From NCBI RefSeq assembly GCF_009914755.1, contig NC_060927.1: 64,000 bases of DNA; one strand, written 5' to 3'. Origin of the DNA: the human T2T-CHM13v2.0 reference genome, Homo sapiens. Positions 10,423 through 13,400 of this stretch are shown piece after piece (within the stretch, counting starts at the first letter, position 1; each line of letters opens with the position of its first letter). Below the pieces are notes generated by a model. That model ran no database searches. It was not told where the DNA came from and was given only the letters and a program-made list of their open reading frames with translations. The position numbers and the translations under genes are program-made.

Positions 10423-13400
10423 TCAGAAAAGCCGCTTCTCATACCTGCAGGCAGAAGGACCACCTGTGAGGTGAGGGCAGGAGAAAGGAGGCATGAGGTA
10501 TGGCAGAGGCCCCACCAAGGACAGGGTGACTTACGAATGGAGGCTATGGACGCCACCTTCCACCTGGGCTGAGGACGTTCTCTTCTCAAACTTAAGCTCC
10601 CCAGAGTACATCATGGCTCTGAAGAAGGGCAGAGGTCAAATGTGGGTAGCTGGCCCTGGACCAGCCCCTCTACCCATGTCCCAGCTCCCCAAGCTCACCG
10701 GACTTGGGTCAAGCTCTTGGCACCAATGTCCTGGCATGAGTGTTGGATGCCAGCAATCAGGTAAGGGACAAATTTGTGGATTGACCCTTTGTCCTGCACA
10801 GCACCAGACACTCCCTGGGCCACTTTGATTTTGTCAGCTTCACTGCAGGGAGAGGCAGAGACACGGGCAAGGTCACAGCAGAGATGAGACTGTCAGTGCA
10901 GGATTAGGGTGGGGTAACTGGCTTGCCTGTCCCACCTGAAATATCTGTTCTGGCTGCTGAGGTGCTTGTCCATGGCATCGAGAGAACCCATACCGCGATA
11001 TTTCTTTAGCCGGATCCCATCGGAAAAGAAGTATTCACCAGGGGCCTCAGTGGTGGCAGCCAGGAGAGAGCCCATCATGACTGCGGACAGATGGAGTGCT
11101 TGGGTTAGAGCCTAAGCAGCACTAGGGAGGGGGTCCCACTGGCCTTCACGGGTACTGGGCCTCACCTGTGGAGGCCCCAAGGGCCAAGGCTTTCGCAATA
11201 TGACCCACATTTTGGATTCCTCCATCAGCAATGACCGGAACACCAAAGCGCCGTGCATACTCTGACACCTTGTACACTGCTGTTGCTTGGGGCCGCCCAC
11301 AGGCCAGCACTGTTGAGATGGAGGAACACATGGGTGGATAGGGTTAATGGGGACGGGCAGTGGACCCTGTGGCCATATTTAGGACCCAGGAGCTTTTGGC
11401 TACATCTGCATCAGGACTGCAGCTTGGCTGAGGAACAGACGTGTCTGGGATGGCTGCTGCCACATCTGCCTTAAATAGTACAAACAGCTGTGCTGACCTC
11501 TACTCACCCCCACATGTGCACGTGCATGTGTGCAGTGCCCAGGGCAGCCTCAGGCACATGCAGTCTTAGCAGCCGGGAAAGCCCCCGTCCAGCTGGTATC
11601 AGATGGGGCAGGAGTCACCGTGCAGTTAGTCCCCAGAGGCACTGAGGTCAGGCCCAGCCCTTCCTCCCTGAATGGTGGGCAGCTCAGGCAAGATAAGGGC
11701 AGTGGTTGTGTAGGAGAGCAGGCTGTGGTTGTGTGGAGCAGGCAGTGGTTGTGTGGGAGAGCAAGGACCACACAAAGGAGTTGGTCCCTGAACTATGCCT
11801 ACTGCAGAAGATGTGGGCAGAAAAGGTCCTGCCTAGGGAAGAAGGTCCTGCCCTATCAGCACCCCAGAAGGAAGAGGGAGCTATGTTCTTGAGCACCACC
11901 CCCAAACCATGGTCTGTGTATCAGTTGGCCTTGCCCACCCATCAGCACCACAAACCCCGGGAGCTACAGCTACGTCAACCAAGCAGCCGGGCAGTGGGCA
12001 GCTGGGCCGGGCCAGTGGGCCGGGCTGGACTTACTATAGCAACCCGTGACAGTAGAAGGGCATTTGGGGCTGTGGGACTTTATGTCTGGAGGGATCTTGG
12101 GAGCCACTAAATAAAACAAACAGACCAGAGTTTAGAGAAGGTGCAGAGCAGGAGCAAGAAGGCCAGGCTAGGCAAGGGAGTGGCAGGTGATGGATGACAA
12201 GACCTTGTCTTGCTTCCAGCCATGTCACCCATCCAAGAGGCCAATTTGGCCCCAGGGTTGCCCCTATTGGAGGGCTCTATTGTCCCCATAAGAGTGCTTG
12301 GTTCCAAGGTATGTGGGGCCTGAAACTGGGGTCTCTGTGGGCCCTATCAAAGTATATTCTTACCTTCCTGCGTAATGCAGATGGAGCCACTTCCCATGCC
12401 CACCCGCAGGGCATCCACACCTGCATCAATGAGGTTCTTGGCCTGGGCAGCAGTGACCACTATGGTGAAGGAAAGGAAAATGCTCATGTGAAGGTTAAGG
12501 TGGGAGCCCAGCTTACCCACTCCCACCACACATCCTTCAGGGCACAATCTTGCCTTACCATTGCCTCCAATGACTTGGAGATTAGGGTATTTGTCTTTGA
12601 TGTACTTGATCATATTGATCTGGAAGATGGAATTTCCCTGGGAAGAGTCCTAGGACAAGAAGTAAGTCTCAGACTGTGATGTGGCAGCTGCCCCTATTGC
12701 CCCAACCCACCTGTGTAGCAGCTCACCAAAACCACTACATCCACACCAGCCTGGGCGAGCAAGTCCAGCCTATACTTGTCATCCTCATGAGTGCCAATGG
12801 CTGCCCCACACAGCAGCTGTTTCTTGGCATCTTTGGAGGCTAGTGGGTAGTCCCGATTCTTCTTCAGGTCTGTCCGGGCAATGATGGCCACAAGCTCATC
12901 ATCTTCATTTACAATGGGCAACTTTCCTGTGGTCAGGGCAGGACATGAATCAGGACCCTAGGCATTAGTTCCAGGCCCTTTCCCAGCTCTAGGACTTACC
13001 CTTCTTGCTGCGCTGCAGAATTTCATTTGCCTCCTTCAGTGTGATGCCTGCAGGGGCTACCACCAAGTCTTCCCTCTTTGTCATTATCTACGTGGGAGGT
13101 GAGATGTGAAGAAGGGCCAGTCATCGACTATGACCAGTTAACTCTTTTCTTTCCTTCCCAAGTAGCTGAGCTCAGAGGCACGCGCCACCACACCCAACTA
13201 ATTTTTTGTATTTTTAGTAGAGACGGGGTTTCACCATGTTGGCCAGGCTGGTCTCAAACTCCTAACCTCATGATTTGCCTGCCTCAGTCTCCCAAAGTAC
13301 TGAGATTACAGGGGTGAAGTTCTATGGACCACCACGTTCATACATTCACACCCAAAACACCCTTCCTCAAGGGATCCCAATAATTCTTAGCAGTATGGTA

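What the first reader, a model, noticed from the sequence alone, without database searches (positions are those of the whole stretch)
12035..12106. Hidden in-frame cassette exon inserting 24 aa into the IMPDH2 catalytic cysteine loop
Seen: IMPDH2 intron 9 (11310-12363) is the longest intron in the gene and has no recognisable TE. It contains a 72-nt segment with a branch-point-like CTAAAC, a U-rich tract plus TAG acceptor and a perfect GTAAGT donor. Its phase (1-1) matches the intron and the frame is open. Inclusion changes [18 protein letters not shown] into [42 protein letters not shown] (538 aa). Established: the Cys in GSGSIC is the catalytic nucleophile (Cys331), this loop also binds the activating K+, and IMPDH2 assembles into tetramers, octamers and filaments. 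Inference: an isoform with a Pro/Ser/Cys-rich insert (including an SP motif and two extra Cys) four to five residues after the nucleophile could be catalytically altered, redox- or phospho-regulated, or act as a dominant modulator in mixed oligomers. That would be a splicing switch on guanine nucleotide synthesis. The exon may already appear in predicted isoform sets, but I know of no functional characterisation.
Basis: partly seen in the sequence, partly recalled or inferred. Interest (0 to 1): 0.8.

Follow-up and report, generated by a model that had tools for sequence, protein, structure and literature searches.

The report
Ancient muscle-regulated IMPDH2 exon 9b
This is a real and already annotated alternative exon of human IMPDH2 that puts 24 extra amino acids next to the enzyme's catalytic cysteine; it has been kept from sharks to humans, yet I found no study of what it does to the enzyme.

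Summary
Window 12035-12106 (- strand) is a 72-nt, phase 1-1, stop-free segment with an AG acceptor and a GTAAGT donor. It adds 24 residues between E335/V336 and L337 of IMPDH2, five residues after Cys331.

It is not hidden. The RefSeq table lists exactly this interval as an exon of another IMPDH2 transcript, and a human predicted isoform carries the insert.

Splice motifs alone are not beyond chance: 16 comparable in-frame open decoys lie in 49.5 kb of introns. Conservation settles it. 75 IMPDH2 cluster representatives, from mammals to sharks, carry a 24-residue insert at this site, with invariant PP, SPK and G positions. Shorter relatives occur in amphioxus, Ciona and probably starfish.

IMPDH2 is on panels of exons mis-spliced in myotonic dystrophy, and the healthy muscle form contains the exon. 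That this panel exon is the same one is inferred.

AlphaFold2 leaves the enzyme fold intact and models the insert as a low-confidence loop.

The human cysteines are not conserved; the SP site is. I found no biochemical study of the isoform.

The exon is already known; its function is open.

The parts
12035..12106 (-). Alternative cassette exon of IMPDH2 (called here exon 9b): 72 nt, phase 1-1, no stop. It encodes [23 protein letters not shown] plus two split junction codons.
   Evidence: The hub RefSeq table lists 12035-12106 as an exon of other IMPDH2 transcripts. Orthologous inserts appear.
12107..12135 (-). 3' splice region: branch-point-like CTAAAC (12130-12135), a T/G-rich pyrimidine tract, and the TAG acceptor (12107-12109).
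   Evidence: The acceptor scores 2.99 bits with the local matrix, and only 2 of 41 true acceptors score lower. A weak acceptor is common in regulated exons (general knowledge).
12029..12034 (-). 5' splice site GTAAGT. The exon side is ATA, which is not consensus.
   Evidence: The donor scores 6.97 bits, and 12 of 40 true donors score lower.
11982..12000 (-). Three closely spaced YGCY motifs 35-53 nt downstream of the donor. This is a candidate MBNL binding cluster (inferred). TRF reports an 8-nt period repeat here.
   Evidence: There are 4 YGCY in the 120 nt downstream. That is only the top 10% of 45,756 intronic windows, so the evidence is suggestive and not significant.
11557..11562 (-). The only TGCATG (RBFOX-type motif) in intron 9, about 470 nt downstream of the exon.
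   Evidence: Its function is not tested.
12364..12459 (-). Constitutive IMPDH2 exon 9, which ends with the codons for the [10 protein letters not shown] catalytic loop.
11166..11309 (-). Constitutive IMPDH2 exon 10, which starts with the LACGRPQ codons.

Best explanation
12035-12106 (- strand) is a genuine alternative cassette exon of IMPDH2 under purifying selection. It is at least as old as jawed vertebrates and probably as old as chordates. Shown: when included, it lengthens the loop that carries the catalytic Cys331 by 24 residues, without changing frame, giving a 538-aa enzyme. Shown: its length, its position and a core of invariant residues (PP, then Ser-Pro-Lys, then a Gly near the end) are conserved from mammals to sharks. 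Shown by model only: the rest of the enzyme keeps the IMPDH fold, and the insert is a low-confidence surface excursion whose two ends meet. Inferred from papers plus recall: this is the IMPDH2 exon that is included in healthy adult skeletal muscle and skipped in myotonic dystrophy type 1, that is, an MBNL-promoted adult-muscle exon. The weak acceptor and the YGCY motifs just downstream of the donor fit that pattern. Inferred mechanism, my best guess at about 45%: the insert is a flexible regulatory loop whose invariant proline-directed serine and flanking prolines are read by a kinase or a binding partner. It would tune the mobility of the Cys loop and so the IMP-to-XMP turnover in striated muscle, most plausibly downwards. 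Muscle lets IMP build up during work and re-aminates it to AMP, so strong IMPDH activity there would drain the adenylate pool.
For: Anatomy. Annotation: the hub RefSeq table, and human XP_016861838.1 carrying the insert (P0002). Conservation, first search: the genomic ORF around the exon found 19 proteins among 24 candidates. All were IMPDH2 or IMPDH of mammals, birds, a lizard and an alligator, with near-identical inserts. Conservation, second search: it added snakes, a turtle, coelacanth, lungfish, gar, eels, many teleosts, and five cartilaginous fishes in eight models. Counts: 75 cluster representatives have exactly 24 extra residues with an SP[KR] core. PP, SPK and one G are invariant. Median identity to human is 60% in the insert against 97% in 60 flanking residues. 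Some clusters are large: 296, 286 and 129 member sequences. Older relatives at the same site: amphioxus P0098 and P0112, Ciona P0113, the unnamed P0104, and starfish P0128 and P0134. Site: between residues 336 and 337 of solved human IMPDH2, and none of the 27 solved IMPDH sequences at E <= 1e-100 carries an insert there. Model: mean pLDDT 87.8, while the three 10-residue blocks covering 331-360 (insert 337-359) average 57, 47 and 47. There are bridge residues at 335-336 and 358-359 and a short helix at 342-347. The model superposes on human IMPDH2 8g9b_A with TM 0.96 and rmsd 1.9 A. Muscle and DM1: IMPDH2 is in the gene list taken from Nakamori 2013, validated there by RT-PCR in 50 patients as described in 10.1101/728881 (passages). 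It is also among the genes whose correctly spliced isoform contains the panel exon in PMC13330057 (passage).
Against: The link between the DM1 panel exon and these coordinates is not shown by any search. Table S1 of PMC13330057 could not be opened and Nakamori 2013 is not held. 'Contains the exon' would also fit aberrant skipping of a constitutive exon. My memory that the panel names it exon 9b is recall only. The YGCY enrichment is weak (top 10% of windows). No junction reads, tissue PSI values or peptides were available. No amphibian IMPDH2 with the insert and no named rodent appeared among the listed hits, although clustering at 90% identity hides cluster members. Most orthologous inserts come from automatic gene models, not from proteins seen by experiment. 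Low pLDDT says nothing about function. The direction of any kinetic effect is pure inference.
Confidence: 0.8

Rival explanations
1. Splicing noise or an annotation artefact: a chance AG...GT pair in a long intron that is open in frame, picked up by gene-prediction pipelines, with no function.
For: Splice motifs of this quality are common. In 49.5 kb of introns, 241 decoy pairs score at least as well, and 16 of them are in frame and open. The acceptor is weak.
Against: A neutral intronic stretch would not keep a 24-codon length, the same insertion point and invariant PP/SPK/G positions across jawed vertebrates (75 representatives), nor leave recognisable relatives in amphioxus and Ciona.
Confidence: 0.03
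2. Inactive or dominant-negative subunit: the insert disables the Cys loop or the K+ site. Mixed tetramers then throttle IMPDH activity in muscle without any signal-dependent regulation.
For: The insert lies five residues after the catalytic Cys, in the loop that binds the activating K+ (established knowledge of IMPDH; site). IMPDH works as tetramers and octamers (PDB titles).
Against: A simple disabling insert needs no conserved sequence, yet a specific motif core is invariant. AlphaFold2 keeps the flanking loop and barrel at high confidence, with the insert ends paired. Cutting transcription would be a simpler way to lower activity.
Confidence: 0.2
3. Assembly or partner-docking module: the insert leaves catalysis alone. 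Instead it changes filament or octamer assembly, or tethers IMPDH2 to a muscle structure through its proline-rich motif.
For: The IMPDH1 retinal splice variants act this way, by changing filament architecture and GTP sensitivity (PDB titles; passage of PMC12666484). The insert is Pro/Ser/Lys-rich and modelled as exposed.
Against: No structural or interaction data exist for it. I had no coordinates, so its distance to the filament interface could not be measured. No complex prediction was run.
Confidence: 0.2

Closest known systems
IMPDH1 retinal splice variants (546 and 595 residues)
   Same: Tissue-specific alternative splicing of an IMPDH paralogue gives isoforms with altered allosteric regulation and filament behaviour. 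These are the only IMPDH splice variants discussed in the 2025 review PMC12666484 (passage). Solved structures are listed.
   Different: The retinal variants add N- or C-terminal extensions, whereas this exon inserts into the catalytic Cys loop. Retina versus (inferred) striated muscle. Human IMPDH1 has an intron at the same place (1326 nt) but no related exon.
GFPT1-L, the muscle-specific 54-nt exon 9 of GFPT1
   Same: A short frame-preserving exon is included in skeletal and cardiac muscle and inserts a peptide into a rate-limiting metabolic enzyme (abstract of PMC10514471 in the listing). GFPT1 sits on the same DM1 splicing panels as IMPDH2.
   Different: A different enzyme and pathway. For GFPT1 the regulators (SRSF1, Rbfox1/2, hnRNP H/F) and functional consequences have been studied. 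For the IMPDH2 exon I found no such work.
Chance or repeat-derived pseudo-exons in introns
   Same: AG...GT pairs with splice scores at least as good, a length divisible by three and an open frame. 14 such decoys lie in QRICH1 introns.
   Different: Several decoy peptides look Alu-derived (my recognition, not a call). The IMPDH2 exon is single-copy, annotated and deeply conserved.

Membership tests
Frame-preserving alternative cassette exon | AG acceptor and GT donor at both boundaries on the gene's strand | tested here: met
   TAG|TG at 12107/12106 and ATA|GTAAGT at 12035/12034.
Frame-preserving alternative cassette exon | Length divisible by three and no stop in the host intron's phase | tested here: met
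   72 nt, phase 1, open.
Frame-preserving alternative cassette exon | Present in some transcripts and absent from the main one | tested here: met
   The hub RefSeq table lists it as an exon of other transcripts, not of NM_000884.3. Human isoform X2 (P0002) carries it. Junction reads are not available with these tools.
Frame-preserving alternative cassette exon | Orthologous exon conserved in other species | tested here: met
   75 representatives from mammals to cartilaginous fishes.
MBNL-dependent exon mis-spliced in myotonic dystrophy type 1 | The gene is on validated DM1 mis-splicing panels | tested here: met
   10.1101/728881 S2 Appendix and the Methods of PMC13330057.
MBNL-dependent exon mis-spliced in myotonic dystrophy type 1 | The panel exon has these coordinates | not testable with these tools
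It is the only non-canonical IMPDH2 exon in the hub table. I recall the label exon 9b, but from no call.
MBNL-dependent exon mis-spliced in myotonic dystrophy type 1 | YGCY clusters placed as expected for MBNL-activated inclusion (downstream intron) | tested here: inconclusive
   4 YGCY in 120 nt downstream, three of them within 19 nt. 10% of intronic windows do as well.
MBNL-dependent exon mis-spliced in myotonic dystrophy type 1 | Inclusion falls when MBNL is lost | not testable with these tools
   Needs RNA-seq or RT-PCR data.
IMP dehydrogenase (Pfam PF00478) | Catalytic loop GSGSIC with the nucleophilic Cys, and the overall IMPDH fold | tested here: met
   The flanking exons encode it. All hits carry PF00478. 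The model of the 538-aa form matches human IMPDH2 at TM 0.96.
IMP dehydrogenase (Pfam PF00478) | Catalytic activity of the insert-bearing isoform | not testable with these tools
   Needs an enzyme assay.

The most novel reading that the evidence does not exclude
Exon 9b is an alternative exon from before the vertebrates, older than the IMPDH1/IMPDH2 duplication. It turns IMPDH2 in adult striated muscle into a gated, low-flux enzyme. The invariant Ser-Pro-Lys in a mobile loop beside Cys331 would act as a phospho-switch, keeping exercise-generated IMP for re-amination to AMP instead of letting it flow to guanylates. Loss of the exon in myotonic dystrophy would then deregulate muscle purine balance.
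Probability: 0.25. Interest if true: 0.75.

Novelty: already known. Interest (0 to 1): 0.5.

Why it matters
[quoted passage not shown] The splice variants discussed in the one IMPDH review I opened are those of IMPDH1. An isoform with 24 extra residues beside the catalytic cysteine, kept for several hundred million years and apparently switched by the MBNL programme in muscle, has not been examined biochemically in anything I could search. If it changes turnover, drug sensitivity or assembly, it would bear on muscle purine metabolism, on drug effects in muscle and on myotonic dystrophy. The test is simple: express both forms and compare them.

Tried and rejected
1. My starting view was that this is a rare, primate-restricted splice variant (stated). 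Searches rejected it.

2. Transposon origin is rejected. The 251 nt around the exon and the whole 1054-nt intron each match only themselves in the assembly.

3. Splice-site scoring does not discriminate the exon from decoys.

4. A human IMPDH1 counterpart was not found. There is no significant protein or DNA similarity in the equivalent 1326-nt intron (the best peptide hit has E 0.10 and lies on the wrong strand). None of five core motifs occurs in any of the three frames.

5. Redox regulation through the two human cysteines is not supported by conservation.

6. The first AlphaFold2 run used 46 closely related sequences and was unusable (mean pLDDT 46.7). The second run, with 97 sequences, is the one used.

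7. Phrase searches for an IMPDH2 exon, splice form or isoform found 0 papers. The insert hexapeptide and two accession numbers that I recalled found 0 papers. Searches turned up nothing about this isoform beyond the two DM1 papers. The passages read in PMC11947269 and PMC13681404 were irrelevant.

8. Closed or missing sources: earlier findings, supplements and Nakamori 2013.

9. A 23-residue query was too short for the protein search. The 53-residue genomic ORF around the exon was used instead.

10. No complex prediction was run.

Full report
**What is there**

Read on the - strand, one search shows IMPDH2 exon 9 (12364-12459) ending in the codons for the catalytic loop, with one base of the next codon left over. 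Intron 9 follows (11310-12363, 1054 nt), and exon 10 starts at 11309.

Inside the intron lie, in order:
- a CTAAAC at 12130-12135;
- a T-rich tract ending in TAG at 12107-12109;
- a 72-nt segment (12106 to 12035);
- a GTAAGT at 12034-12029.

rebuilt the 514-aa IMPDH2 protein from the hub coordinates. It confirmed that the intron is in phase 1 and that the segment is open in that phase. One search gives its 23 whole codons, [23 protein letters not shown] (P0001).

One search aligns a 538-aa orthologue to solved human IMPDH2. Residues 1-336 and 360-538 of the query match residues 1-336 and 336-514 of the structure. The insert therefore lies between residues 336 and 337, five residues after Cys331. 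None of the 27 solved IMPDH sequences at E <= 1e-100 has an insert there.

**Is it more than chance?**

By splice motifs alone, no. I built position matrices from the window's own 40 annotated donors and 41 acceptors.
- The donor scores 6.97 bits, and 12 of 40 true donors score lower in leave-one-out.
- The acceptor scores 2.99 bits, and only 2 of 41 true acceptors score lower.
- 553 of 3619 intronic AGs and 96 of 2706 intronic GTs do at least as well.
- In 49,482 nt of coding introns there are 241 AG...GT pairs of 30-300 nt in which both sites match or beat the candidate. 83 are multiples of three and 16 are open in the host phase.
- Two of those 16 are the candidate and a 51-nt version of it. 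The other 14 lie in QRICH1 introns, and several look Alu-derived (my recognition, not a call).

The segment and the whole intron are single-copy in the assembly, so the exon is not a repeat.

**Annotation**

The protein search also returned a human predicted isoform (XP_016861838.1, P0002) that carries the insert. The exon is not hidden.

**Conservation**

This is the decisive evidence, and it overturned my own first guess of a primate-restricted minor variant.

*First search.* I searched with the 53-residue genomic reading frame around the exon. It found 19 proteins among 24 candidates. All were IMPDH2 or IMPDH, from human, buffalo, three whales, donkey, a bat, ten birds, a wall lizard and an alligator. 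Their inserts are almost identical to the human one.

*Second search.* I then searched with residues 300-400 of the 538-aa bird protein (5443 hits at E <= 1e-10 among 8000 candidates, best 120 listed). This added snakes, a turtle, coelacanth, lungfish, gar, eels, carp, zebrafish, salmon, tilapia, stickleback and pufferfish. It also added five cartilaginous fishes in eight models: elephant shark, two rays and two sharks.

*Counts.*
- 77 stored proteins have exactly 26 residues between the two flanking motifs.
- 75 of them carry an SP[KR] core. The other two are IMPDH1-type models with unrelated inserts.
- Across the 75, two adjacent prolines, the Ser-Pro-Lys triplet and one glycine near the end are invariant.
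- Five further positions in the insert are 84-92% conserved.
- Median identity to human is 60% in the insert against 97% in 60 flanking residues.
- Several representatives stand for large clusters: 296, 286 and 129 member sequences.

*Older relatives at the same site.*
- Amphioxus models have a 21-residue insert that shares the Ser-Pro-basic and Thr-Val-Gly elements.
- A Ciona model has a 14-residue insert whose end matches that of sharks.
- An unnamed 530-aa protein (P0104) has an 18-residue insert with a similar end.
- Two starfish share a 21-22-residue insert whose end resembles the amphioxus one.
- A hemichordate model has an unrelated 27-residue insert.
- The cricket, scallop and spittlebug rows have none.

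The exon therefore predates jawed vertebrates, and probably predates the IMPDH1/IMPDH2 duplication.

*IMPDH1.* Human IMPDH1 keeps an intron at the same position (1326 nt) but shows no trace of the exon. Teleost IMPDH1 models carry their own lineage-specific inserts at this site.

*Limits.* Most rows are automatic gene models. No amphibian IMPDH2 with the insert and no named rodent appeared among the listed hits, and clustering at 90% identity hides cluster members.

**Regulation**

IMPDH2 is one of the genes whose splicing is disrupted in myotonic dystrophy type 1 muscle.
- It is in the list taken from Nakamori et al. 2013 in the bioRxiv paper 10.1101/728881. That paper describes the events as validated by RT-PCR in 50 patients (passages).
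- In the 2026 MARINA trial paper PMC13330057, IMPDH2 is among the genes whose correctly spliced isoform contains the panel exon (Methods passage).

That the panel exon is this exon is an inference. It is the only non-canonical IMPDH2 exon in RefSeq, and I recall, from no call, that the panel labels it exon 9b. The table that would settle it could not be opened, and Nakamori 2013 is not held. 'Contains the exon' would also fit abnormal skipping of a constitutive exon.

The sequence fits an MBNL-activated exon only loosely. The acceptor is weak. Three YGCY motifs lie within 19 nt, 35-53 nt downstream of the donor, and there are four in the first 120 nt. However, 10% of intronic windows have as many. 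One TGCATG lies about 470 nt downstream.

**Structure**

The first AlphaFold2 run, on 46 closely related sequences, failed (mean pLDDT 46.7). I added 65 diverse IMPDH representatives from a full library search. The second model of the 538-aa bird orthologue is good: mean pLDDT 87.8 and pTM 0.82. It superposes on human IMPDH2 8g9b_A at TM 0.96 and rmsd 1.9 A.

The insert is the weakest part of the model. The 10-residue blocks covering 331-360 average 57, 47 and 47. A short helix is predicted at 342-347, and bridge residues at 335-336 and 358-359 suggest that the two ends of the insert meet. In the model, then, the insert is a flexible excursion from an otherwise intact enzyme. No coordinates were available to me, so I could not measure distances to the active site, the K+ site or the filament interface.

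**Interpretation**

The pattern is a short linear motif, not a folded module: fixed length, a few invariant residues (two prolines, a proline-directed serine followed by lysine, a glycine) and otherwise free variation. Neither human cysteine is conserved: the first is replaced in ray-finned and cartilaginous fishes, and the second is seen only in the mammalian rows.

My best guess, at about 45%, is a regulatory loop that tunes Cys-loop mobility and so turnover in striated muscle, probably downwards. The physiological reasoning is general knowledge and was not tested here: working muscle accumulates IMP and re-aminates it to AMP, so IMPDH flux there would be costly. The rival functions are a plainly inactive or dominant-negative subunit and an assembly or docking module like the IMPDH1 retinal variants. 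None of them was tested.

**Novelty**

The exon is annotated and, on my reading, already serves as a clinical splicing biomarker, so the feature is already known. What I could not find in print is any study of the isoform's biochemistry.
- Six searches of the held library found nothing beyond the two DM1 papers.
- A 2025 IMPDH review mentions splice variants only for IMPDH1 (passage).

Subscription journals and supplements were out of reach, so this absence is provisional.

**Verdict**

- Observation: confirmed.
- Interpretation: partly supported.
- Novelty: already known as an exon, with its function open.
- Interest: 0.5, for the depth of conservation and the position beside the catalytic residue.

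Noticed in passing
window 12035-12085 (- strand): An internal AG (CCCTCCAG) gives an alternative acceptor with a better local score (6.1 against 3.0 bits). 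It would make a 51-nt, in-frame, open 17-residue version of the exon that lacks the first seven residues.
   Followed up: partly
P0080-P0085 and P0120 (cyprinid IMPDH2 models): Carp-family fishes have a further 12-residue piece inserted immediately before the 24-residue insert, or alone in P0120. This looks like a second alternative micro-exon in the same intron.
   Followed up: no
P0097, P0101, P0141, P0142; P0123, P0124, P0130, P0131: Teleost IMPDH1 models carry their own inserts at the same loop position. One shared motif occurs in tilapia, turbot and clownfish, and another in carps. The intron after the Cys-loop exon may be a recurrent site for alternative exons in IMPDH genes.
   Followed up: no
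P0021 (Pangasianodon gigas model, 649 aa): The model repeats exon 9 and the insert twice in tandem. This is either a local duplication or an assembly or annotation artefact.
   Followed up: no
window 11698-11763: A 20-nt tandem repeat (3 copies, 82% matches) lies in IMPDH2 intron 9, downstream of the exon.
   Followed up: no
window 11508-11801 (- strand): A 294-nt decoy exon in the same intron has stronger local splice scores (8.5 and 9.2 bits) than the real exon 9b, but it is not open in the host phase.
   Followed up: partly
G000 contigs C23, C10, C9, C2, C3, C8, C6 and C16: Ten further matches to the IMPDH exon-10 peptide (61-79% identity) lie outside IMPDH1 and IMPDH2. Nine have no stop inside the match and sit in open frames of 83-366 aa; one has a TAG. 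They are probably processed IMPDH1 pseudogenes.
   Followed up: no
window 12105-12107 (first junction codon): Human reads Val at the first junction codon, whereas the other mammals, birds, reptiles and most fishes listed read Ala. Ala makes up 93% of the 75 representatives.
   Followed up: no
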